In this document: piece by piece, positions 1 to 40,375 of the stretch | Layout of the letters: each line of letters opens with the position of its first letter | Position numbering within the stretch: the stretch's first letter is position 1 | DNA from: a virus | Taxonomy: Duplodnaviria > Heunggongvirae > Uroviricota > Caudoviricetes | Virus record (IMG/VR): IMGVR_UViG_2925897562_000003 | Length of the DNA stretch: 46,293 nt | Direction: 5' to 3' (one strand) | The notes under the pieces: generated by a model | Database searches by the model: none | What the model saw: the letters and a program-made list of their open reading frames with translations, nothing else | What the model was told of the DNA's origin: nothing | Program-made: the position numbers and the translations under genes

Positions 1-1209
1 ATGTCGGTTTTTCATAACTGGCTGCTTGATATCGCAAGCGGGAATTACTTTATCTACATCAAACGCCTTTCTGCAAACGACACAGGCGCAACAGGTGGCC
101 ATCAGGTCGGACTTTATATCCCCTCAAATATCGTTGAAAAGCTTTTTCCATCTATCAATCATACTCGCGAACTGAACCCTTCAGTCTTCCTTACTGCGCA
201 TGTATCATCCCATGATTGCCCTGATACCCAAGCACGCGCAATTTATTACAACAACCGTTATTTTGGTAAGACCCGAAACGAAAAAAGAATTACGCGCTGG
301 GGGAGAGGAAGTCCATTACAGAACCCTGAAAATACAGGAGCCCTCACAATTCTTGCTTTCAGGTTAAACGAACAGAACACTGACTGTTCCGAGGTAGATA
401 TATGGGTCTGCGTCAATCCCGATGAAGAGGATATCATCGAGTCTGCTATTGGCGAAATCATACCTGGAACCCTAATTTCCGGCCCTGCCGGACAAATTTT
501 GGGCGGATTGTCTCTTCAGCAAACTCCAGTAAATCATAAATATGTTATTCCTGAAGACTGGAAGAAGCGTTTTCCTTCTGGAAACGAAATTATTCAATAT
601 GCTGCTGGCCATTATGCTAAAAACTCCAAGGATCCAGATGAGCAACTGATTGACCGTCGGCGTGTCGAGTATGATATTTTTCTACTCGTCGAGGAATTAC
701 ATGTTCTTGATATTATTAAGAAAGGATTCGATTCTGTAGATGAGTTTATTGCATTAGCCAACTCTGTCAGTAATCGACGTAAATCAAGGGCAGGCAAATC
801 ACTTGAACTTCACCTAGAGAAGCTTTTTATCGAGCACGGACTACGGCATTTCTCCACTCAGGCAGTTACTGAAGGTAATAAAAAACCAGATTTCCTGTTT
901 CCTTCAGCAGAGGCATATCATAACGTTGAATTTCCTGTAGAAAACTTACGTATGCTGGCAGTAAAGACCACCTGCAAAGATCGCTGGCGTCAGATACTGA
1001 ATGAAGCAGATAAAATCCATCAGGTACATTTATTTACACTGCAAGAAGGTGTTTCTTCAGCACAATACCGAGAAATGAAAGATGCGGGTGTCAGACTCGT
1101 TGTACCATCAACTTTACATAAAAAATACCCAGAAGCAGTTAGAGAAGAATTAATAACGCTCGGAGCATTCATTACTGAGCTGATAGAGCTTTACGCTGAA
1201 CTATCATAG
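1..1209 (+). CDS. ecoRIIR: Type II (IIE) restriction endonuclease, EcoRII-like
   Basis: 402-aa ORF starting at window position 1; N-terminus MSVFHNWLL...YIKRLSANDTGATGGHQVGLYIP matches my recollection of R.EcoRII (about 404 aa); convergent with a Dcm-like methyltransferase 35 bp downstream. Confidence 0.8.
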   Translation: MSVFHNWLLDIASGNYFIYIKRLSANDTGATGGHQVGLYIPSNIVEKLFPSINHTRELNPSVFLTAHVSSHDCPDTQARAIYYNNRYFGKTRNEKRITRWGRGSPLQNPENTGALTILAFRLNEQNTDCSEVDIWVCVNPDEEDIIESAIGEIIPGTLISGPAGQILGGLSLQQTPVNHKYVIPEDWKKRFPSGNEIIQYAAGHYAKNSKDPDEQLIDRRRVEYDIFLLVEELHVLDIIKKGFDSVDEFIALANSVSNRRKSRAGKSLELHLEKLFIEHGLRHFSTQAVTEGNKKPDFLFPSAEAYHNVEFPVENLRMLAVKTTCKDRWRQILNEADKIHQVHLFTLQEGVSSAQYREMKDAGVRLVVPSTLHKKYPEAVREELITLGAFITELIELYAELS

Positions 1210-1214
1210 GCTGA

Positions 1215-1237
1215 CTCCCGGCTTAAAAGGCCGGGAG
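1215..1237. terminator. Hairpin between convergent R and M genes (CTCCCGGC-ttaaaag-GCCGGGAG); no clear U-tract on either side
   Basis: Perfect 8-bp inverted repeat read directly between the R stop (1207-1209) and M stop (1244-1246). Confidence 0.35.
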
Positions 1238-1243
1238 ATGTTC

Positions 1244-2677
1244 TCAAGGCTGCCCAGTCTTACCAGCATCAGCAGAAACAGCTTTGAGGATATAGGGTTC
1301 CAGAAGTCTGGCAACAGCTTCAAATACTGGCACCACAACTGAGTTACCGAACTGCCGATATGACTGAGTATCTGAAACCGGAATACGGAATGGTTTCCCT
1401 CCAGGTTTTTCAAATCCCATAAGGCGTGCGCACTCTCGGGGAGTCAGCCTGCGTGGTCGACGAGCCTGATTACTCTCATTCATAAAGTCAGCCTCTCCCG
1501 TTGCCATATCCCAACCACGATCAATAAGAATTTCTGATCCGTCTTTGTGATATCTGGCAGAAAGTGTGCGTGCAATGCTTTCCTTATTCTCAGGATTGAC
1601 CAACCCAAAGCCAAAACCATTCCCCTTGGCTGCATGCTTTTTGGCGTAGTTATAAAGGTACTCCCATAGTTTTGGCGTAAGTATATATTTACTGTCGACT
1701 ACAGGCTCCAGCAATTCACCAAATGATGGGCGGTGTTCCGGATAAAAACGACTGATATCACGCAAGGTAAACCCCTTGTGAATATTCAGATCTCGTCTAA
1801 ATCCGACCAGAACAATACGTTCACGATGCTGAGGCAAAAAATGCTTCCCATCGATAATCTTTGGATCGTTTTTTCCCATTTCTGCAGCATCGGCAACTTC
1901 GTAGCCCAGCTCGTCAAGGGTCTCCATAATGACTTTGAAAGTTTTACCCTTATCATGGCTCTTCAGATTTTTGACATTTTCCAGCACAAAAATTGCCGGT
2001 TTTTTTGCTCGTATAATACGTGCCACGTCAAAAAAAAGTGTTCCTTGTGCTTCACATTCAAAACCATGCGCACGACCAAGTGAGTTTTTCTTACTAACAC
2101 CAGCAAGGCTAAATGGCTGGCACGGGAACCCCGCAAGAAGCACATCATGATCCGGCACATGCTCATCAATATATGCATAAGCATCCGTTTCCAATACATC
2201 GGTTTTATCACTCAGCGTGACTTCCCGAATATCGAGATTGAATTTATGCACCTGTTCATCGTTAAACCAGTTGGCCTTGTATGTACGCACAGCATCTTTA
2301 TTCCATTCACTGGTAAAAACACACTGGCCTCCAATGGCCTCAAAACCTTTCCGTATCCCTCCAATTCCAGCAAATAAGTCAATGAAGCGGAAAGCATATT
2401 CCGGATGGTTTGCAGGTGGTTCTGGTAGCATCTTACGCAGAAGAGACTCTTCTACTGAAGTCAACGATTTTGGTAAACACTTGCCATTAATCCAGCGGTT
2501 AATGGTTTCACGGCTCCACTCATTTTTTCCGACTTTTCTCAGTAATTCAGCCACATACTTCTGATCATAGATTTCCAGCACTTTCTCGATAAGCTTTTTA
2601 TCATTTTCCTGTCGCAGCTTTTCTTCCGCCTCGGCTTCCTTCAGCAGATGCTGTGCCAACACTTCAAATTCAGACAT
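1244..2677 (-). CDS. ecoRIIM: DNA cytosine-5 methyltransferase, Dcm / M.EcoRII-like (CCWGG family)
   Basis: Motifs FAGIGG, PCQPFS, ENVKNL, QFGNSV and near-identity along its length to my recollection of E. coli Dcm; ATG at 2677 gives 477 aa (ORF track begins 14 codons upstream at 2719). Confidence 0.9.
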
Positions 2678-3038
2678 AATTCCTCCAAGGGGTCTAATGG
2701 GTGAAACTTTATCACTCATTCAACCCAGAAGGAAATGTTTTATCTGGATATTTAAACAGTGACTACAACGTAATCTAGCACTGGTGATGCTTTGTTAGGC
2801 ATAGAGAATCATTCTATATACGACTAATGACAGAAAAACAGCAGACAAGTAGTTTGTTCATAAATTAACGCATACTATGTGTCTACGGTTTTCGAGACCG
2901 GTCCAATCATCAAACGAAACATAAAATTAGCTCACATTATGAGGAAAAGTATCTTTTTTGTACTATGTAAATTCAAAGGCTTAGCCTCATTTCTCCGATG
3001 GTTTTCTCAACACTACTGGTTGTGAGCCCTTGCAATGA

Positions 3039-3857
<819 letters not shown>

Positions 3858-3926: not shown

Positions 3927-4511
3927 TTACACGGTGTCTGGTTCTTCTGGCCACTCAATATCCGGTGCAGTTGATGTATCAACACGGTTCAGCAACACCC
4001 GATACTTTTTCCAGGCTTCCAGCAATGAGGTTTCTTCCTCCGTTGCGATTTCCAGATCTACAGCATCCTGAAGTGGCGCAATATGCTCACTGGCTACCTG
4101 CATCAGGCTGTTTTTTGTTTCTTCTGCCTCCCGGATCCGGAACAGTTTTTCTGCTTCCGTATCCTTCACCCAGGCTGTGCCGTTCCACTTCTGATATTCC
4201 CCTCCCGGCGACAACCAGGTAACATTTTCCGGTAACGGACCGAGTTCAGAAATAAATAACGCGTCGCCGGAAGCCACGTCATAAACCGTTTTACCCCGAT
4301 GGTCTTCAACGAGATGCCACGATGCCTCATCACTGTTGAAAACAGCCACGAAGCCTGCCGGAATATCTGGTGGTGCAATATCGGTACTGTTTGCTGGCAG
4401 ACCTGTATGAGGCGGAATATATGCGTCACCTTCACCAATAAATTCATTAGTTCCGGCCAGCAGATTATAAATTTTTATGGTCCGTGTTTGTTCACTCATT
4501 CTGAATGCCAT
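3927..4511 (-). CDS. tfa: Tail fiber assembly protein (lambda Tfa-like)
   Basis: 194 aa immediately downstream of stf; composition and position typical of lambdoid Tfa. Confidence 0.8.
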
Positions 4512-8205: not shown

Positions 8206-11200
8206 TCAACGAATACTGATGCCGGAAGCCGCTTTTTTGGTCACAATCACCGTACAGTCGGTGATATTGCCTGCCCCCTGATTGCCTTTCTGGAAAATCT
8301 TAAACTCCAGAGTGACGCTACCACCACCACTAGGCATATCAATAACTGCACTGTAACTACCGGGAATGGCCCCTTTAGTTTCTCTGGATGCGATTAATAC
8401 GCCGTTTTTGCGAACTTCAAAACCATAACCCGTGTATCGCGTGCCTCCCGGGTTATTTCCGCTCCCCGGATCGTCATACGCTATACCGTTAAAAATAATG
8501 GGCGGAATAATAATCTGGCGGTCAAAGTTATGATCATCGCTGATGGTGACTGTAACCGTACCGTTTGGTGTTTCCGTGTTACCCCACGTACCGACTTTTT
8601 TCGGGAAGGCTTTTGATACAGCTTTAACGAAATCTCCTCTGACCTGGGTCGCCTCCAGCATGCCCTTAATCGTACAGTTCTGGTTAATCGTGACATTGTT
8701 GAGCGTTCCTGAGTTCGCATTCACACTGCCACTGATATCCGCATTTTTCGCCGTCAGTCTCCCGTCTGATGTCAGGGAAAATGCCGGAGGATTACCGCCG
8801 CTGGTAATGGTGGGGGCCGTCAGGCGTTTCAGGAACACTTCATTCATGAATATCTGATCGCCCTGACCAACAAACATCGGCTTTGTGTTGCCATTCGCAG
8901 GATTAATCATCGCAATCCTGTCTGCTGCCAGCAGCACCTGACTCTGCATGCCGTCAGGGGTGTTCTCAATACCGGCACCGATACCCGCAATATAAAGGCG
9001 TCCGTCCTGCATCTGCTGCAGCTTCACTGCCCACATGCTGTTCAGGTTATTATTTGTATCAACCTGAACCTTCTGTATCTGCTGGATCGCTGCACTCTGG
9101 TCTTCCAGTTTCTTATTGACGGTCTGTGTTATTTCATTGCTGACATCCGTTATGGACGTCCTGATTTCAGTCAGGTCAGGCGCAAGCTGACCGTTATCAA
9201 TCTGCGTCCACAGCTCCTGAGCCAGATGGGTTTTCCCTATCTCGCCTTTGAAAAAATCCAGATAGCCTGATGCATCATCACTCGGCTGACCGACAGCCTC
9301 CACGAATGCCGATTTGCCAACGGTGTTCACACTGCGAACGTAAAAATAATAATCATGGCCCGGTTTGATATTGATACTGGCGGCTATCCAGTACAGTGCC
9401 GTACCAAGATAACGCGCGCTGGTTTCAACCTGCCTGATATCCGCAATCCGTTTTTCCGAGAACCAGAACTCAAACTGTACCGTCGGGTCATAAACCGCAA
9501 GATGCGGCGTGGCGGTTATCTGAAAATAGCCCGGCGTCAGCTCAATCCGCGACGGCGCTGCCGGTGCGGCAATCCGGAACGATACCGACGCCGGATCGCC
9601 CTGCTGCCCCCACGCATTTACTGCCCGGACTGTCAGCCTGTAGTTCCCCAGAGCCAGTTGTGTGAAGCGGTAAGTGGTTTCCGTCGTCCGGGCCGTGCTG
9701 ACCAGCCGCTCACGGCCGTCATCCGCTGCCACGGTCAGGCGAAGCAGGAAGCTCACGCCCTTCACCACCTTCGGCGTGTCCCAGCGCGCCAGCACCTGGT
9801 ATTCCCCGCTGTCTGCGGTGACTTCTGCGGTCAGGTGCTGCACCGCTGGCGGCGTGACACCATTTACCGTGCCGCTCTGGTCGCCGTCAAAGTGCGCCCC
9901 GTTATCCACGATGGCCTCTTTTTCCGGTACATGCTGCACGGCGGTGATGGCATACGTGCCGTCGTCGTTCTCACGGATACTCACGCAGCGGAACAGGCGC
10001 TGGCGCAACGTCGGCAGCTTCAGCCCCCATACGCTGTATTCAGCAACGCCGTCAGGAACACGGCTCACTTTCACCTTCACGCCGTCGGTGACGGACTGAA
10101 CCTCCACGCTGACCGGACTCCCCTGCCCGTCAACCAGGCTTATCAGCGTGGTGCCGGAAGATGGCAGCGTGATTTCACGGTCGAGCGTCAGCGTCCGGGT
10201 CTGGCTGTTTACCGCCAGCACGCGCCCGCCGGTGCGGATACCGGCATAGTCATCATCGCAGATTTCAATGACATCGCCCGGTACATGGCGAAGCCCTTCG
10301 GCACCCACGCTGAAGTCCACGGTCTGCGTTTCCAGCAGTTCTGTTTTAATCAGCCACAGCCCGGCGCGGTGTGCCTGCCCCCGGCTGGTACAGCCAAAAG
10401 CATCCATCTTCGTGACGTTACGACCGTAACGGGCAATGGCCTGCGTGTCCTCCACAAGCTCTGTCGCCGTCTCCCAGCCGTTATTCGGGTCAATCCAGTT
10501 CACCTCAACGGCATTATGGCGGTCCTTCAGGGCGCTGAAGCTGTAGCGGAACGGCGCACCATCATCCGGCATCACCACATTACTGCGGTTATAGGTCCAC
10601 ACCTTATCCGACGGTCGGTCCTGCACGAACGTCAGCGTCTGCCCGTTCCATACCGGCATACAGCGCATCGCAGAGCAGAAATCACTGAGCACATCCCACG
10701 CCTTGCGCTGTGTGGTCAGGTACGCATTACAGGTGATGCGCGGCTCCGTGCCGCCAAAACCGTCCGGCACCGACTGATCGCAATGCTGGCCGATGACATA
10801 CAGCGCCCATTTGTCCACATCCGCCGCACCAAGACGTTTCCCCATGCCGTAGCGCGGATGGGTCAGCATATCCCACAGACACCAGGCCATGTTGTTGCTG
10901 TATGCTGGCTTAAACGTTCCGTCCCAGATACCGCTGTATTGCCGCGTCTGCGGGTTATAGTTCGACGGCACCTGCAGAATGCGCCCGCGAAGATGATAAT
11001 TACGGCTCACCTGCTGGCTGCCGAACTGCTCCGAATCCACCTGTACGCCGACCAGTGCCGTATTCGGGTAGCCCTGTTTCACATCGATGATTTCGGTGTA
11101 TGACGACCAGAGCGTTTTGTTCTGCAGCTGGTCTGTGGTGCTGTCCGGCGTCATCCTGCGCATCCGGATATTAAACGGGCGCGGCGGCAGGTTATCCACC

Positions 11201-28682: not shown

Positions 28683-29735
28683 TTATTTCCCCACCAGCTC
28701 GTTTATCTCTTTCACTGTCTGGTTAAACCGCTCTGACTCAAGCTCAACACCTAAGGCCCGACGCCCCAGCGCCATTGCTGCTTTTATTGTGGAACCGGAT
28801 CCCATAAAAAAATCAGCAACCAGATCACCAGGTCGACTACTGGCATTGATTATTTGCCTGAGCATATCCACCGGTTTCTCACACGGATGTTTACCCGGGT
28901 AGAACTGAACGGGTTTATGCATCCAGACATCGGTATAAGGCACGGAGACTGATACGGAGAAATAGCGCCGGAGAGATTTAAACTCATCCAGCAATTCAGA
29001 ATATTTGCGATTCAGTGAATCATAAGATGCCACCAGCTGGTGGTGTGGTTGTTCCAGTTGTTGTTCCTGAAACTTCTCTGCCGCTATACGGGAAAACAGT
29101 GCCTGTAACTTCCGATAGTCAGCCTCATTCGGCAACTGCCACTGACTGGCACCAAACCAGTGGGAAACCATATTTTTCTTACCTGTGGCTTCGGCAATTT
29201 GTTTTGCCGTTATACCCAGTTCGGCACGAGCATCCCTGAAATACGATATCAGCGGTGCCATTATGTGCTGTTTGAGTTCCCTTTCTTTTGCCGCATAGCC
29301 GTCACTTTTGCCGCGATATGGCCCCTGGTAATGTTCAGCAAACAGAACGCGCTCTGTGGCAGGAAAATATGCGCGCAGACTTTCTTTATTACACCCATTC
29401 CAACGTCCGGACGGCTTCGCCCAGATGATATGGTTAAGCACGTTGAAACGTTCACGCATCATGATCTCAATATCAGATGCCAAGCGATGCCCACAGAACA
29501 GGTAAAGGCTTCCGGCAGGTTTTAACACCCGCCAGAACTGGGCCAGACAGTGGTCCAGCCACTTAAGGTAATCTTCGTCCCCTTTCCACTGATTGTCCCA
29601 ACCGTTGGGTTTCACCTTGAAGTAAGGCGGATCGGTAACAATCAGGTCAATGGAATCATCAGGCAGGGACTGAATAAAATGCAGGCAATCAGCGTTGATT
29701 AAATCAACACTGTTTATTTTTACAGTATTTTTCAT
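28683..29735 (-). CDS. Orphan DNA amino-methyltransferase (N6-adenine or N4-cytosine; DPPY motif)
   Basis: IVTDPPYF catalytic motif near the N-terminus plus C-terminal FFMGSGST AdoMet motif; no partner endonuclease adjacent. Confidence 0.8.
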
Positions 29736-29885
29736 GGATCAGTAAGCGTAACTCTGGTAGGCTCACTCTGCTTTTGCGCTAAAGCAGTGGGCCGTGGTTC
29801 GCTTGTGACCAGTAAGCATGAGCGAATGGCTGGCAGGTGCTACCAACACCCACCAGCCGCCCATTTTCACAGCAGGAAACCGCCA

Positions 29886-31411: not shown

Positions 31412-32481
31412 CTTGAATTGTCAAACCAAGTGCAACGATTTTTTGAAGTAAACTTCATAAGGTGTTTTCCAACCTAAACATTTACGTGGTCGTAAATTCA
31501 GTTTATTGATCACCTGTTGAATATCAACTTCGCTCCACTGATTGATGTCTTGGTGCTTCGGAAAGTATTCACGAAGTAACCCATTTGTATTTTCATTCGT
31601 TCCCCGTGTCCACGGTTGATGCGGCTCGGGGAAGTAAAATTCTACACCCAGTGCTTCTGTTACCAAACGATGTTGGGCAAATTCTTTACCACGGTCTGGC
31701 GTAATTGACCGCAATATATGTGAATCCAGCAATTCAATCATGGCTTTTTGGACTGCTTCGGCTTTTTTGGCAGGAATTTTCTTCACCAACTCAAAACGAC
31801 TTTTGCGTTCCGTCAGCGTCAGCAAACAAGCTCCACCCGCTTTACCCAGTACGGTATCGGCTTCCCAATGTCCAAAGCGACTGCGATTTTGCGCCGAAAT
31901 GGGACGGTCGTTCAAATGGTTGGATATCTGAATTTTGCCACGTTTTTCATGATGATTTTTTGTATGCCGTGTTTTGCCTTTGTGGCGCAGTTTGCGACTG
32001 GCTTTGCGTTCGCCTATATCAAACAACCCTGAATAAATACCACGATAAATGGTTGAATAACTAATGGATAATTCAGATTTTTCCAATTTTAATCGTGCGC
32101 TGATTTGTTCGGGCGACCAGTTTTCTGTCAGAAACTTTTCTTGCACCAAATTGAAATATTCAGGCTGCTCTAATTTGCGCTGTGCTTTGCTATTTTGACG
32201 ATGCTTCAAATAGCTGTTTTGTGCGTTCGTTGCACTGTAGCTTTCTAGAGCGTGTCGTTTCAGCTCGCGAGAAATGGTGCTGGAGCTACGTCCCAGTGCT
32301 TTGGCAATTTCTGCTTGTTTTTTGCCCTGTGCGAGTAAAATCATTATCTTTTCTCGCTCGTTTATTGTAAGATGTCGGTAGGAAGTACTCATCATTTGGA
32401 AGTGGTTTTTGTGTGGAAACAAAATTATATTCTAGTTGATGAGTACTTCTTTTTTTGTTGCACTTGGATTGTAAATTCAGC
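31412..32481 (-). mobile_element. IS30-family insertion sequence (about 1.07 kb), possibly ISApl1-like
   Basis: Single transposase ORF flanked by imperfect roughly 25-bp terminal inverted repeats (left TGAATTGTCAAACCAAGTGCAAC, right reverse complement TGAATTTACAATCCAAGTGCAAC); exact ends and target duplication not resolved. Confidence 0.8.
31421..32344 (-). CDS. IS30-family transposase (DDE); 307 aa from MILLAQ, ORF track extends to 32422
   Basis: N-terminal HTH (AEIAKALGRSSSTISRELKR), catalytic region HWEADTV...TPDRGKEF...TRGTNEN typical of IS30 transposases. Confidence 0.85.
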   Translation of the reverse strand: MILLAQGKKQAEIAKALGRSSSTISRELKRHALESYSATNAQNSYLKHRQNSKAQRKLEQPEYFNLVQEKFLTENWSPEQISARLKLEKSELSISYSTIYRGIYSGLFDIGERKASRKLRHKGKTRHTKNHHEKRGKIQISNHLNDRPISAQNRSRFGHWEADTVLGKAGGACLLTLTERKSRFELVKKIPAKKAEAVQKAMIELLDSHILRSITPDRGKEFAQHRLVTEALGVEFYFPEPHQPWTRGTNENTNGLLREYFPKHQDINQWSEVDIQQVINKLNLRPRKCLGWKTPYEVYFKKSLHLV

Positions 32482-32871: not shown

Positions 32872-32894
32872 AAAAAAAGGGGGGTAATCCCCCC
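32872..32894 (-). terminator. Strong rho-independent terminator immediately after Q (GGGGGG-ATTA-CCCCCC then TTTTTTT on minus strand)
   Basis: Perfect 6-bp G/C stem with 4-nt loop and 7-T run, 5 nt downstream of the Q stop; the loop also holds the stop codon of the plus-strand disrupted gene. Confidence 0.6.
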
Positions 32895-32899
32895 TAATA

Positions 32900-35084: not shown

Positions 35085-35474
35085 TCAGGCGGCTGCACCC
35101 GCCGGTTTCTCATACTTACTGATAGTGATCTCGACCTTCCCTTTCGGGATAACCGGTCCCCACTCCACCAGCATTCTTTTCACCTGTCTGTCGTCTTCCC
35201 ACACACCCGCGTGGGTCAGGGCGTCAAACAGCGCCTTGTTATAGTTGTCCAGATCGCGGATCCGGTTATCCGGAGGAAACAACACGATCTCCACTGAAGC
35301 AGGTGCCGACGTTGGTTTCGGCAGACGACGTAACTGCTCAACTATTGCTGCGCACGCCGCGCTCTGAAATTTTCGCCCCGCCTCGCTTATCAGGCTCTTA
35401 CCAGCAAATGCCCCTTTGTTGGGGTGTCGCCAGTACGTGTTCACACTGGGCGGGAAAGGAAGGATCAACTTCAT
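35085..35474 (-). CDS. rusA: Holliday junction resolvase RusA
   Basis: 129 aa; LPFPPSVNTYWRH...RDLDNYNKALFDALTHAGVWEDDRQV matches the RusA family. Confidence 0.85.
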   Translation of the reverse strand: MKLILPFPPSVNTYWRHPNKGAFAGKSLISEAGRKFQSAACAAIVEQLRRLPKPTSAPASVEIVLFPPDNRIRDLDNYNKALFDALTHAGVWEDDRQVKRMLVEWGPVIPKGKVEITISKYEKPAGAAA

Positions 35475-35797
35475 ACTTTCAGGCCCCTCTCATGTAACCA
35501 GTGGGCTGCACGCAACCTGGCGTTCTCCTCACCGGCAAGCAGTGCGCGGATGATACCGACCGCCTCGCTGTCGTCGTCCTTCACCGCGATATGAAGCGTT
35601 ATCCCCCGGGCCACGCCACGCTTTATCGTGATGACACCTTTTTTCTCCAGTGCGCGAAGATGCTCCACCGCTGCATTCACTGAACGATATCCCAGCATGG
35701 TTGCCACCTCCTGATTGGTTGGCGGGAAGCCTCGTTCTTTCTGGTAAGAAATCAGCATATCCAGCACCTGCTGCTGGCATTGAGTTAATGTCGTCAT
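35471..35797 (-). CDS. LexA N-terminal DNA-binding-domain homolog lacking the S24 peptidase domain
   Basis: LTQCQQQVLDMLISYQKERGFPPTNQEVATMLGYRSVNAAVEHLRALEKKGVITIKRGVARGITL aligns by eye with the LexA N-terminal domain as recalled; protein ends at 108 aa with no Ser/Lys-dyad region. Confidence 0.6.
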   Translation of the reverse strand: MTTLTQCQQQVLDMLISYQKERGFPPTNQEVATMLGYRSVNAAVEHLRALEKKGVITIKRGVARGITLHIAVKDDDSEAVGIIRALLAGEENARLRAAHWLHERGLKV

Positions 35798-36480
35798 GCC
35801 GCCATCTCCCTGACCAGTTTTTCTGCCTGCAGGCGAACCTGCGCCAGAAAGGCCTCACCACATGCCTCAAGTTCATCACGCCCGATGTAGCTGATTGCCG
35901 GTCCCTTCCAGGTCTTGTCGAAAACAGCAATAGCACCAGCGAAGAAAGCGCCTGTCGGCACCTGCTTCTCGTCCTTCGGTATAAACCAGGCAGGCAGTTC
36001 AAAACCAATACGCCCGCGAATAAAAGCAATATGATCTGCATCTTCCGGCCACCACACTTCGCTGGTGGCCGCTTTGATCAGGAAAACATAGCGCCCGCCC
36101 TTATCACGCATGGCACTGGCATGTTTCATGATGTAACGCATGCCGGTGATGTATTGCCCCTCATGCTGACTGGCGCGGCTGTATGGGGGATTACCAAAGG
36201 CAGCACCTTTAAGCTCCGCAAGACGTTCTGACCAGTCATGCGCCAGCGCGTTATCTTCCGCCGTGTAATACGCGGCACATTTGGCGTTATCACCGTCAGT
36301 AAACAGATCCAGAACAAACGGGCCAAACAGGGTGTTAATTCCCCAGAAAATGTTGTCCGGCGTGCGCCACTGATCGCCCACTTCCTTCAGTTCATGGGCT
36401 GGTTTGTTCCGCAGTTCCACCAGCGCCTGGCAATATTTATTACTCATTAAGCCCCCACGTAATTCCCTGACAGATACCAC
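35794..36480 (-). CDS. Phage-type DNA N6-adenine methyltransferase (orphan)
   Basis: NPPY motif (FGNPPYS) and overall resemblance to phage Dam-family methyltransferases; no partner nuclease. Confidence 0.75.
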   Translation of the reverse strand: MVSVRELRGGLMSNKYCQALVELRNKPAHELKEVGDQWRTPDNIFWGINTLFGPFVLDLFTDGDNAKCAAYYTAEDNALAHDWSERLAELKGAAFGNPPYSRASQHEGQYITGMRYIMKHASAMRDKGGRYVFLIKAATSEVWWPEDADHIAFIRGRIGFELPAWFIPKDEKQVPTGAFFAGAIAVFDKTWKGPAISYIGRDELEACGEAFLAQVRLQAEKLVREMAA

Positions 36481-37756: not shown

Positions 37757-37989
37757 GCTGCACCTCCGAGATGCTTCATGTTTTTTCCGGAGCGAAAGGC
37801 TATAAGCGGCATACTGACGCGGTAATTACGGCCCAGCGGTTCACAAACCACCTTCTGACATTCACGGTCAACCAGGCTAACACGTAGAACATGCCCTGCA
37901 GGCGTGGTGTACCACTGCCCAACTGTAGGAATTGATGTTTTTTTACGCTGAAGCAAACGGCAAATATTGAGGATCAACGGATTAAGCAT
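37753..37989 (-). CDS. Hypothetical protein (78 aa)
   Basis: ORF in operon context only. Confidence 0.3.
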   Translation of the reverse strand: MLNPLILNICRLLQRKKTSIPTVGQWYTTPAGHVLRVSLVDRECQKVVCEPLGRNYRVSMPLIAFRSGKNMKHLGGAA

Positions 37990-38818
37990 GACGATGCCCT
38001 CCGCTGATATTCAGGAGACGGTGAATATGAAAATTAGCCTTATCCGCCAAACGGATACGTTCAGCCTGCAAGTTAAGAAGGGTTTCTACCAGAACCTGAT
38101 GCGCCTGCGGATCCGAAAGAGTTACCTTGCGCAGAGCACGTAGTGCAGTTGTTACATAACTGAGTTTATGTAAGTCTTCATCATTCAGACGAGTGAGGGC
38201 TGGGACAGTAGCCATGATGGCAGCCTCCGATAACAGTGAATTACCTTCACCACCGGAAACGCCAATTTCGCTGGTGGTGAACTGAACGGGGTTGGCGTAA
38301 CCGGCGTTATCGGAAACCGGCGCACCTTTCGGTGCCCCCGTCCAGCCCACCATAATTTGGGTGTGCGCAGACGCAGACGATAAAAAAGACGCTGGCGCGT
38401 CATATATCGCCGATAACATTTCCAGGACGCCAATCCCGGCACCCGCTTTATAAGGTGCCTGAACAGTGTAACGTCCCGGAATGGCAGAATCAATGTGCTG
38501 GTGGTCCTTCACACTCAACAAAATCACGCCTGAATTTCCACAAAGGACTAAAGCACTCATGCGGGTAGTCTTTGCGAAGATAGATAACGCGCTGTGTTTC
38601 TGGCTCCCAACGAATAACATGGACATAAAGCCCTCTTCCATCACGAAACCAGCGGTTAAGTTCCTGCACAACTCGCCCCCCACAGTCAGGTAAAGTTCTC
38701 TGTGGTTACTTACAGCCAGGTGATTTGGTAATCTGCATTCATGCCGTAACAACAGGTGTTCAGCGACACTGACCACCAGCTGTTGCGACAAACGGTTATT
38801 TGCCGTTAAACTGTTCAT
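37982..38818 (-). CDS. Hypothetical early-right operon protein (278 aa)
   Basis: ORF in operon context between the cII-like and replication genes; no family recognised. Confidence 0.4.
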   Translation of the reverse strand: MNSLTANNRLSQQLVVSVAEHLLLRHECRLPNHLAVSNHRELYLTVGGELCRNLTAGFVMEEGFMSMLFVGSQKHSALSIFAKTTRMSALVLCGNSGVILLSVKDHQHIDSAIPGRYTVQAPYKAGAGIGVLEMLSAIYDAPASFLSSASAHTQIMVGWTGAPKGAPVSDNAGYANPVQFTTSEIGVSGGEGNSLLSEAAIMATVPALTRLNDEDLHKLSYVTTALRALRKVTLSDPQAHQVLVETLLNLQAERIRLADKANFHIHRLLNISGGHRHA

Positions 38819-39700: not shown

Positions 39701-40375
39701 ATGAAAACAGTCCATGACATCCGGCGGTCTAACGCCAGAAAACTGAGAGATGGTGTTGGCGGGAATTCTTCCTTTGCCACCATGATTGATCGCGAGCCAA
39801 CCCAGACCAGCAGGTTTATGGGAGATGGTGCTACTAAAAATATCGGTGACAGCATGGCAAGGCACATCGAAAAATGTTTCGACCTGCCTGTCGGATGGCT
39901 TGATCAAGAACACCAGACCACGAACATCACAAAAAAACCTGATGTTTCAATCACTAACAAACAAATAACGTTAGTCCCTGTCATATCATGGGTACAGGCC
40001 GGAGCATGGAAAGAAGTTGGCTATTCTGAGGTTGATTTGAGCACAGCAGAAACTTATCCCTGCCCTGTACCCTGTGGCGAAATGACTTATATCTTGCGGG
40101 TGATTGGTGATTCAATGATTGATGAGTACCGCCCGGGAGACATGATTTTTGTTGATCCTGAAGTCCCTGCCTGCCACGGTGACGACGTTATTGCATTGAT
40201 GCACGATTCAGGCGAAACCACCTTCAAGCGATTGATAGAAGATGGAACACAGCGTTATCTCAAAGCATTAAACCCAAACTGGCCTGAGCCTTACATTAAG
40301 ATTAACGGTAATTGCTCTATAATTGGTACAGTGATTTTCTCGGGAAAACCAAGAAGATACACAATAAAGGCCTAA
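39701..40375 (+). CDS. cI: CI-like prophage repressor (HTH plus S24 LexA-like autopeptidase domain)
   Basis: 224 aa; C-terminal region VIGDSM...; divergent from cro. Confidence 0.85.
   Translation: MKTVHDIRRSNARKLRDGVGGNSSFATMIDREPTQTSRFMGDGATKNIGDSMARHIEKCFDLPVGWLDQEHQTTNITKKPDVSITNKQITLVPVISWVQAGAWKEVGYSEVDLSTAETYPCPVPCGEMTYILRVIGDSMIDEYRPGDMIFVDPEVPACHGDDVIALMHDSGETTFKRLIEDGTQRYLKALNPNWPEPYIKINGNCSIIGTVIFSGKPRRYTIKA

What the first reader, a model, noticed from the sequence alone, without database searches (positions are those of the whole stretch)
35471..35797. Prophage-encoded LexA DNA-binding domain without the autocleavage domain
The 108-aa protein aligns by eye with the N-terminal winged-helix domain of LexA but stops before the Ser/Lys-dyad peptidase and dimerisation domain. 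Such a protein could bind SOS-box-like operators without being inactivated by RecA-stimulated cleavage, or interfere with host LexA. Its start and stop overlap the flanking Dam methyltransferase and RusA genes, placing it in one operon with recombination functions.
Basis: partly seen in the sequence, partly recalled or inferred. Interest (0 to 1): 0.55.

Follow-up and report, generated by a model that had tools for sequence, protein, structure and literature searches.

The report
Prophage LexA-like DNA-binding protein, no protease
This lambdoid prophage gene encodes a small protein made of a LexA-type DNA-binding domain and a short conserved helical tail in place of LexA's self-cleaving domain. 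The family is common and already annotated but, as far as I could find, untested, and it most likely acts as a DNA-damage-insensitive LexA-like regulator during phage growth.

Summary
ORF 35471..35797 (minus strand, 108 aa) has a full-length LexA DNA-binding winged helix: Pfam PF01726 E=2.9e-19, and about 50% identity and about 1 Å rmsd to E. coli LexA residues 1-69. It has no S24 peptidase domain. Its start and stop overlap the Dam methylase gene and rusA through ATGA overlaps.

It is not a bare DNA-binding domain. A flexible acidic linker leads to a conserved two-helix hairpin (residues 75-102), which is under the same purifying selection as the DNA-binding domain (dN/dS about 0.2). Four of LexA's five DNA-contacting residues are kept: S39, N41, A42 and E45.

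The family is old news as a sequence. It is PHROG 362, RefSeq names it "LexA family transcriptional regulator", and it is present in 2232 of 5426 complete E. coli genomes, including Stx2 phages. It always sits directly upstream of rusA in Enterobacteriaceae lambdoid prophages. I found no functional study.

My best inference (confidence about 0.4) is a RecA-insensitive, tail-dimerised protein that binds SOS boxes. It would be expressed from the early-right operon and would restore LexA-type repression after host LexA has been cleaved.

One strong, conserved SOS box lies in the prophage, over the 5' end of an M.EcoGII-type methylase gene. The main rival explanation is a phage-specific regulator like GIL01 gp6.

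The parts
35471..35797 (-). LexA-like gene, 108 aa plus stop (member of PHROG 362, annotated 'LexA family transcriptional regulator')
   Evidence: ORF. Pfam PF01726 E=2.9e-19. PHROG 362 matched over its full length, E=8.8e-59. RefSeq annotation of the identical gene.
35591..35797 (-). Residues 1-69: LexA-type winged helix-turn-helix (H6-22, H28-35, H40-52, strands 56-58 and 66-68)
35642..35680 (-). Recognition helix, residues 40-52 (VNAAVEHLRALEK). With S39 it keeps LexA contact residues S39, N41, A42 and E45; E44 is replaced by V
   Evidence: Alignments. Contact residues taken from PMC3091678. S39 and N41 are invariant in the short family.
35576..35590 (-). Residues 70-74: low-confidence acidic linker (IAVKD...)
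   Evidence: pLDDT is below 50 for residues 71-74.
35474..35575 (-). Residues 75-108: conserved two-helix hairpin (H75-87, H93-102), the proposed dimerisation or partner-binding module
   Evidence: AF2 pLDDT about 85. Conserved pattern EA..lIraLL....A..RA..WL...G across genera. dN/dS 0.18-0.20 in 72 unique genes of the sister subfamily. No Pfam or PDB match.
35794..36447 (-). Upstream gene: phage Dam-family N6-adenine methyltransferase. Its stop overlaps the LexA-like start
   Evidence: Pfam PF05869 E=1.2e-45. RefSeq boundaries. The mechanical ORF extends to 36480.
35085..35474 (-). Downstream gene: RusA Holliday-junction resolvase. Its start overlaps the LexA-like stop. This is the invariant neighbour in related loci
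   Evidence: Pfam PF05866 E=1e-14. Directly downstream of the LexA-like gene in all 91 fetched loci with a match.
29708..29727 (.). The only strong SOS box inside the prophage (CACTGTTTATTTTTACAGTA). It overlaps codons 3-9 of the M.EcoGII-type methylase gene and is a candidate cis target for host LexA and/or the LexA-like protein
   Evidence: PWM score 22.4 bits, above the maximum of 200 shuffles, 20.5. Conserved at the same place in homologues with 77-80% aa identity.
39701..40375 (+). Context: CI-type prophage repressor with an S24 peptidase domain, the RecA-sensitive switch of this prophage
   Evidence: Pfam Peptidase_S24 E=2e-26. Annotated ymfK 'LexA family protein' in the identical prophage.

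Best explanation
The gene encodes a cleavage-proof LexA surrogate. Its N-terminal domain is a true LexA winged helix that keeps most of the base-contacting residues of enterobacterial LexA. A flexible linker joins it to a small two-helix hairpin, which replaces the S24 domain as the element that pairs two DNA-binding domains. This pairing role is inferred. The gene is translationally coupled within the early-right (replication-nin-Q) operon, so it is made after the CI-type repressor has been cleaved in an SOS-induced cell. That is exactly when host LexA has been destroyed. The protein then occupies CTGT-N8-ACAG-type operators that RecA* can no longer clear. These would be host SOS boxes and, in this phage, the box over the 5' end of the toxic M.EcoGII-type methylase gene. 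The effect would be to damp SOS functions, SOS-controlled rival elements and premature methylase expression during lytic growth.

Shown here: domain identity, absence of the protease, conservation and selection of the tail, operon position, and the presence and conservation of one SOS box.

Inferred: dimerisation through the tail, binding to SOS boxes, timing of expression, and the physiological effect.
For: The fold and sequence are LexA-specific. There is no S24 domain, and the TIGR00498 score of 69 bits is below its cut-off of 111. Contact residues S39, N41, A42 and E45 are kept, and 9 of 14 positions in residues 39-52 are identical to E. coli LexA. The tail is conserved from Escherichia to Cronobacter, Kosakonia, Enterobacter, Cedecea and Klebsiella, with dN/dS about 0.2, equal to the DNA-binding domain. 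The model gives confident helices after a floppy linker, the same layout as LexA's own domain-linker-dimeriser. Other lineages solve the pairing problem differently at the same locus or elsewhere: a different 90-aa C-terminal domain in L004-L011, and tandem double domains in P0132/P0133/P0150. An isolated LexA DNA-binding domain does not repress sulA-lacZ unless it is fused to a dimerising partner. This is the principle of the Dmitrova LexA-based dimerisation assay, as used in PMC7160566. The gene string from the replication gene to Q has overlapping stops and starts, and no minus-strand promoter-like or terminator-like site lies between 38388 and 35084. The prophage repressor is an S24 type, so induction occurs in LexA-depleted cells. 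One high-scoring SOS box in the prophage is conserved across diverged methylase homologues. Phage-encoded damping of SOS has precedents in GIL01 gp7 and Listeria AriS.
Against: There is no binding or expression data of any kind. E44 is never retained in the family, and E45 is replaced in some subfamilies: G in P0084, D in P0123, S in the L004 type, L in P0169, I in P0185. Specificity may therefore have drifted. P40 is V here, and residues 40-42 are known to tune specificity (own knowledge of the LexA408 mutant). Most related phages have no SOS box within 10 kb of the gene (only 21 of 92 loci score >=15 bits), so a phage-internal target is not general. No enrichment of CTGT/ACAG half-sites at any spacing was seen in the window. 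The closest characterised analogue, gp6, evolved a different site and acts as an activator.
Confidence: 0.4

Rival explanations
1. The protein is a phage-specific transcription factor of the GIL01 gp6 type. The LexA fold was recruited, but the protein recognises its own operator, not the SOS box. It activates or represses a phage promoter, for example a late or nin-region promoter.
For: gp6 is a LexA DNA-binding-domain-only phage protein. It binds GaCACAnnTGTGaC and activates the late promoter P3. Recognition-helix positions 44 and 45 vary between subfamilies. The gene evolves faster (42-50% aa identity between subfamilies) than its neighbours rusA (70-80%) and the DUF968 gene (63-67%), as expected if it co-evolves with a phage-specific site.
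Against: In this protein four of the five LexA contact residues are unchanged, whereas gp6 has a different helix: K38 aligns with N41. No recurrent palindrome or candidate operator was found near Q, the late region or the immunity region. There is no detectable BLASTP similarity to gp6.
Confidence: 0.3
2. The protein is a DNA-targeting or architectural accessory of the recombination/nuclease module (RusA, DUF968/HNH protein), not a transcription factor. The tail would dock onto a neighbouring gene product.
For: Invariant ATGA-type coupling to rusA in 91 loci across genera. A DUF968/HNH gene (PHROG 96 'HNH endonuclease') lies two genes downstream. One protein, P0156, fuses a LexA DNA-binding domain to the DUF968 C-terminal HNH region. 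The upstream neighbour is always a DNA methyltransferase, but of varying family: Dam, MT-A70 or C5.
Against: The fusion is a singleton seen on one contig, so it is probably a deletion artefact. RusA works alone in other phages and in E. coli (established knowledge). Synteny in lambdoid nin regions is common without any functional coupling.
Confidence: 0.12
3. The protein is a dominant-negative antagonist of host LexA. It would poison LexA dimers or occupy half-sites without repressing, so raising SOS expression.
For: It shares the DNA-binding domain, and LexA DNA-binding domains contact each other on DNA (own knowledge of the 3JSO complex).
Against: The LexA dimer interface lies in the C-terminal domain, which is absent here. 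A conserved tail of its own points to self-association instead.
Confidence: 0.05
4. The gene is an inert remnant of a captured lexA gene.
For: Its function is uncharacterised. Truncated and frameshifted copies exist in databases.
Against: Length is conserved at 104-112 aa across at least eight genera. dN/dS is about 0.2 over the whole gene, tail included. It has a proper Shine-Dalgarno sequence and is translationally coupled. An intact copy is present in 41% of complete E. coli genomes.
Confidence: 0.03

Closest known systems
E. coli LexA (SOS repressor; PDB 1LEA, 3JSO, 1JHH)
   Same: [quoted passage not shown] Contact residues S39, N41, A42 and E45 and the wing residues R64-G65-I66 are kept. 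A flexible linker follows the domain.
   Different: It has no S24 peptidase/dimerisation domain and no Ser119/Lys156. The apparent 'LLAGE' match to the VAA|GE cleavage site is not conserved in the family. Instead there is a 30-residue helical hairpin. It is phage-encoded, in an early lytic operon.
GIL01 gp6 (Bacillus tectivirus; PMC6182141)
   Same: It is a phage-encoded LexA homologue that lacks the protease domain and is expressed from an early operon of an SOS-inducible temperate phage. It shows that such proteins are functional regulators.
   Different: gp6 is 66 aa and consists of the DNA-binding domain only. It derives from a Gram-positive LexA and shows no BLASTP similarity to this protein. 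Its recognition helix differs (K38). It binds its own palindrome and activates the late promoter. The protein here has an extra conserved tail and a host-like recognition helix.
Engineered LexA-DBD fusions to dimerisation domains (LexA-based bacterial two-hybrid, Dmitrova 1998; used in PMC7160566)
   Same: The architecture is a LexA DNA-binding domain, a linker and a heterologous dimeriser. In that system the architecture is sufficient to repress an SOS-box promoter and is insensitive to RecA.
   Different: Those fusions are artificial. Here the dimerising role of the natural tail is only inferred.
Non-inducible LexA (Ind-) mutants, and the phage SOS dampers GIL01 gp7 and Listeria AriS
   Same: The proposed outcome is the same: SOS genes stay repressed, or are repressed again, despite RecA activation.
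   Different: Ind- mutants are full-length LexA. gp7 acts by binding host LexA. AriS acts through an ANT/KilAC domain. None of them is a truncated LexA.

Membership tests
LexA SOS repressor (TIGR00498 equivalog) | N-terminal LexA_DNA_bind winged helix | tested here: met
   PF01726 matched 1-65 of 65, E=2.9e-19. Structural match to 1LEA and 3JSO.
LexA SOS repressor (TIGR00498 equivalog) | C-terminal S24 peptidase/dimerisation domain with the Ser-Lys dyad | tested here: not met
   The protein ends at residue 108. There is no Peptidase_S24 hit. TIGR00498 scores 69.3 bits against a cut-off of 110.95 and matches only profile positions 1-91.
LexA SOS repressor (TIGR00498 equivalog) | Ala-Gly autocleavage site in the linker | tested here: not met
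   A88-G89 aligns with LexA A84-G85. However, the pair is replaced in family members: AN in Citrobacter-type sequences, and ER, TR, DD, AC, AE and AD in others. With no catalytic domain present, the match is a chance resemblance.
LexA SOS repressor (TIGR00498 equivalog) | Binds CTGT-N8-ACAG SOS boxes | not testable with these tools
   Only indirect evidence: four of five contact residues are kept, and one conserved SOS box lies in the prophage.
Short prophage 'LexA family transcriptional regulator' (PHROG 362) | Full-length match, about 106 aa: DNA-binding domain plus helical tail | tested here: met
   phrog_362 matched 1-108 against 1-106 of 106, E=8.8e-59. Homologues of 104-112 aa occur in Escherichia, Salmonella, Citrobacter, Hafnia, Cronobacter, Kosakonia, Enterobacter and Cedecea.
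Short prophage 'LexA family transcriptional regulator' (PHROG 362) | Position directly upstream of rusA in the lambdoid nin region | tested here: met
   The same order, LexA-like then RusA, then KilA-N in some loci, then DUF968 and, where detected, Q, holds in all 91 fetched loci with a match.
GIL01 gp6-type late-gene activator | LexA DNA-binding domain without a protease domain, phage-encoded | tested here: met
   This protein has an extra C-terminal hairpin that gp6 lacks.
GIL01 gp6-type late-gene activator | Sequence relatedness to gp6, including the K38 recognition residue | tested here: not met
   BLASTP finds no alignment with E<=100. K38 of gp6 aligns with N41 here.
GIL01 gp6-type late-gene activator | Own palindromic operator overlapping the -35 of a late promoter; activates transcription | tested here: inconclusive
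   No candidate palindrome was found downstream of Q or near the late genes. Promoters are not mapped, and activity cannot be tested here.

The most novel reading that the evidence does not exclude
Lambdoid prophages of Enterobacteriaceae, including Stx2a and Stx2c phages, carry a natural uncleavable LexA. It is a LexA DNA-binding domain dimerised by a private helical hairpin. After induction it would re-impose repression on the host SOS regulon, on SOS-controlled rival prophages and colicins, and on the phage's own toxic non-specific M.EcoGII-type methylase. If so, it would shape burst size, Stx output, competition between prophages and SOS mutagenesis in about 40% of E. coli strains.
Probability: 0.3. 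Interest if true: 0.65.

Novelty: new member of a known kind. Interest (0 to 1): 0.4.

Why it matters
If the protein really binds SOS boxes and cannot be removed by RecA, then a very common prophage gene rewires the end-phase of the SOS response. It is present in 41% of complete E. coli genomes, often in several copies, and on Stx2 phages. This would bear on Shiga-toxin phage induction by antibiotics, on which prophage wins in polylysogens, and on SOS-driven mutagenesis. It would also be a natural counterpart of the engineered LexA-DBD fusions used for decades, and a Gram-negative counterpart of GIL01 gp6. If it instead has its own operator, it is one more uncharacterised lambdoid regulator. 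Either way the sequence observation itself is already in the databases, and only the function is open.

Tried and rejected
(1) LexA-like cleavage site. The alignment places 'LLAGE' opposite LexA 'VAAGE', which suggested trans-cleavage by host LexA or RecA*. I rejected this because the Ala-Gly pair is not conserved in the family.

(2) Phage-internal operators. I scanned for CTGT/ACAG half-sites at spacings 0-24 in all orientations. I also looked for inverted repeats around Q, the late region and the immunity region. Nothing recurrent was found beyond the single SOS box.

(4) The tail alone against PDB and Pfam gave only non-significant hits: the HOIL-1L LTM helical dimerisation motif at E=0.44 and the NIL domain at E=0.017.

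(5) The search for related loci with the divergent family alignment failed because no stretch was conserved enough. I used single proteins instead.

(6) The fusion of a LexA DNA-binding domain with DUF968/HNH (P0156) was considered as a Rosetta-stone link. It is a singleton and was down-weighted.

(7) Ten full-text literature queries found no functional study of this family. It appears only in catalogue listings, for example pham 237 in PMC8136144.

(8) The Zhang 2010 paper on the LexA-DNA structure is not held. Contact residues were taken from PMC3091678 and PMC5999292.

(9) The defence-system library gave no meaningful hit for the protein.

Full report
OBSERVATION. The ORF at 35471..35797 (minus strand) starts with ATG and encodes 108 aa. 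A GGAG Shine-Dalgarno sequence lies 8 nt upstream of the ATG (sequence). Its ATG overlaps the stop codon of the upstream Dam-family methylase gene in an ATGA overlap. Its stop codon overlaps the ATG of rusA in the same way. An identical gene in E. coli strain WAT is annotated in RefSeq with the same boundaries as 'LexA family transcriptional regulator'. It is flanked there by 'phage N-6-adenine-methyltransferase' and 'RusA family crossover junction endodeoxyribonuclease'.

IS IT LexA-LIKE OR A GENERIC WINGED HELIX? Pfam LexA_DNA_bind covers residues 1-65 against the whole 65-position profile, at E=2.9e-19. The next family, HTH_Crp_2, scores E=0.0017, below its cut-off. phmmer against PDB returns only LexA entries, the best being the E. 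coli LexA DNA-binding domain 1lea at E=6.5e-16. BLASTP against E. coli LexA gives 43% identity over 90 residues, E=2e-21.

PMC3091678 lists the DNA-contacting residues of E. coli LexA as S39, N41, A42, E44 and E45. Here S39, N41, A42 and E45 are kept and E44 is V. The refutation criterion 'similarity limited to a generic winged helix' is not met.

WHAT IS MISSING AND WHAT IS ADDED. There is no S24 peptidase domain. The LexA equivalog model TIGR00498 scores 69 bits against a cut-off of 111 and matches only positions 1-91.

The alignment runs on through the LexA linker and puts 'LLAGE' opposite the cleavage site 'VAA|GE'. This Ala-Gly pair is replaced in many family members, so I treat it as coincidence.

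The protein does not simply stop after the DNA-binding domain. After a low-confidence acidic linker (residues 70-74) come two confidently predicted helices, 75-87 and 93-102. Their pattern, EA..lIraLL....A..RA..WL...G, is conserved down to about 40% overall identity. In 72 unique genes of the Enterobacter-type subfamily, dN/dS is 0.21 for the DNA-binding domain and 0.18-0.20 for the tail. The tail is therefore a selected, functional module. It has no significant Pfam or PDB relative.

DISTRIBUTION AND CONTEXT.
- The gene is found in 2232 of 5426 complete E. coli genomes, with up to four copies per genome.
- It is found in 51 phage records, including Stx2a, Stx2c and Shigella phages.
- It matches PHROG 362 ('transcriptional repressor') over its full length.
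- Exhaustive profile-free searching finds relatives that carry the tail only in Enterobacteriaceae. By cluster names these are Cronobacter, Kosakonia, Enterobacter, Cedecea, Klebsiella, Salmonella, Citrobacter and Hafnia.
- In all 91 fetched loci with a match, the gene lies directly upstream of rusA, followed by DUF968/HNH (with a KilA-N gene between them in some loci) and, where it was detected, Q.
- The upstream neighbour is a DNA methyltransferase in the three arrangements examined, but of different families: Dam PF05869 here, MT-A70 in L013, and Dam plus C5 in L004.
- The gene diverges faster (42-50% aa identity between subfamilies) than rusA (70-80%).

In this window the string runs CII-like, Ash (with the C4 and isrK RNAs), replication protein, PerC-like, Dam, LexA-like, RusA, KilA-N, DUF968, Q. 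All are on the minus strand, divergent from an S24-type CI repressor at 39701..40375. Consensus scans find no minus-strand promoter-like or terminator-like site between 38388 and 35084. The gene is thus most simply a delayed-early gene, made after induction or infection and not in the lysogen. This is an inference.

OTHER SOLUTIONS TO THE SAME PROBLEM. At the same position upstream of rusA, loci L004-L011 encode a LexA DNA-binding domain joined to an unrelated C-terminal domain of about 90 aa (158 aa in all). Elsewhere there are single chains with two tandem LexA DNA-binding domains. Many proteins of about 70-80 aa consisting of little more than the domain also appear among the top hits. One singleton fuses the domain to the DUF968 HNH region. 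Together these fit the established fact that a lone LexA DNA-binding domain binds poorly and needs to be paired. That is the basis of the LexA-based dimerisation assay, in which the domain represses sulA-lacZ only when fused to a dimeriser (PMC7160566).

I built a 20-bp weight matrix from 22 E. coli SOS boxes recalled from the literature, so it is approximate. It gives one outstanding site inside the prophage: 29708-29727, CACTGTTTATTTTTACAGTA, 22.4 bits. This is within the range of the training sites and above the best of 200 shuffles, 20.5.

The site overlaps codons 3-9 of a 350-aa N6_N4 methylase gene (28683..29735, minus strand), which lies just upstream of the lysis genes. The box is kept at the same place in homologues only 77-80% identical in protein sequence: L004-L008 and Stx2 phage 1720a-02. 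PMC5778455 states that the non-specific adenine methylase M.EcoGII is 349 aa, silent in the lysogen and harmful when expressed, and that it has a very similar homologue in phage 1720a-02. This gene is therefore of the M.EcoGI/GII family.

A second, weaker box (2742-2761, 18.7 bits) lies 23 bp upstream of an EcoRII-type C5 methylase gene at the prophage edge.

On the other side of the ledger, only 21 of 92 loci have any site of at least 15 bits within the fetched flanks. No half-site spacing is enriched in the window. No recurrent palindrome was seen near Q or the immunity region. If the protein binds SOS boxes, its main targets must therefore be chromosomal.

MECHANISM. My best-supported reading (confidence 0.4) is an uncleavable LexA surrogate: a LexA-type reader head, a flexible linker, and a private helical dimeriser. 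It would be produced from the early-right operon in cells whose own LexA has just been cleaved, and it would re-occupy SOS boxes.

Phage strategies that damp SOS are known. GIL01 gp7 stabilises LexA on DNA, and Listeria AriS down-regulates SOS.

The main rival (0.3) is a gp6-like regulator. GIL01 gp6 is a 66-aa LexA DNA-binding domain that recognises its own palindrome and activates the late promoter. Unlike gp6, whose recognition helix differs and which shows no BLASTP similarity to this protein, the present protein keeps the host-type contact residues. However, positions 44 and 45 vary among subfamilies, so drift in specificity cannot be excluded.

Minor rivals are an accessory of the RusA/HNH module (0.12), a dominant-negative antagonist of LexA (0.05; there is no interface for it), and a dead remnant (0.03; contradicted by the selection analysis).

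NOVELTY. As a sequence family this is already catalogued, in PHROG 362, in PGAP naming, and as pham 237 in PMC8136144. Phage-encoded, protease-less LexA homologues are a known kind, with gp6 as the example. I found no experimental work on this enterobacterial family in ten full-text searches. I rate it a new, uncharacterised member of a known kind and of moderate interest. The interest rests on its prevalence, its presence on Stx phages, its host-like recognition helix, and the conserved SOS box on a toxic methylase gene.

Noticed in passing
window 29708-29727 (gene 28683..29735, minus strand); L004:14259, L005:15440, L093:6186: A high-scoring SOS box overlaps codons 3-9 of an M.EcoGI/GII-type non-specific adenine methylase gene, which lies just upstream of the lysis genes (upstream of stx2 in phage 1720a-02). 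The box is conserved in homologues with 77-80% aa identity. The 5' region is present in 1078 of 5426 E. coli genomes. This could explain why this toxic enzyme is silent in lysogens.
   Followed up: partly
window 29736-29830: The roughly 95 nt upstream of the methylase ATG are more conserved than the coding sequence across diverged phages. They contain a perfect-looking hairpin (29768-29787, CTGCTTTTGC/GCTAAAGCAG). There was no Rfam or tRNA hit.
   Followed up: no
window 1-3857: There is defence cargo at the prophage edge. It comprises an EcoRII-type restriction enzyme (1..1209, plus strand), its C5 methylase (1244..2719, minus strand) and a full-length PD-T4-3 GIY-YIG protein (3084..3857, plus strand; PADLOC E=8.8e-139). 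An SOS-like box (2742-2761, 18.7 bits) lies 23 bp upstream of the methylase start.
   Followed up: partly
window 38270-38458 (minus strand): Rfam finds a C4 antisense RNA (38270-38357) and the isrK Hfq-binding sRNA (38382-38458). Both lie inside the long 'Ash family' ORF 37982..38818 in the early-right operon. This is a P1/Gifsy-type RNA-controlled module.
   Followed up: no
window 31421-32422 (minus strand) and 3970-4168 (minus strand): An IS30-like transposase ORF (HTH_38 plus rve) sits between Q and the late methylase/lysis genes. In the otherwise identical WAT prophage, Q itself is split by an IS21 element. An IS009 RNA family hit lies in the tail-fibre assembly region.
   Followed up: no
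L004-L011, about 10001-10477: A variant at the same position upstream of rusA has a LexA DNA-binding domain joined to an unrelated C-terminal domain of about 90 aa (158 aa; PHROGs 29443 and 24920, no Pfam hit). It is preceded by a Dam fusion protein and a 673-aa C5 methylase.
   Followed up: partly
P0156 (240 aa); P0132, P0133, P0150: There is a singleton fusion of a LexA DNA-binding domain to the C-terminal HNH part of DUF968. Several single-chain proteins carry two tandem LexA DNA-binding domains.
   Followed up: partly
L025:5229, L027:6203, L035:6430, L041:4643, L058:5697, L072:5357, L073:5594; L093:14161: Very strong SOS boxes (23-27 bits) lie in the immunity regions of related phages. In L025-L073 no S24-type CI was detected, which suggests LexA-controlled antirepressor switches. 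L093 (Stx2 phage 1720a-02) was not screened for an S24-type CI; there the box lies inside the CDS annotated 'regulatory protein'. All these phages also carry the LexA-like gene.
   Followed up: partly
window 32878-32895 (minus strand): A strong intrinsic terminator (AGGGGGGATTACCCCCCT followed by a T-run) lies 5 nt after the Q stop codon.
   Followed up: no
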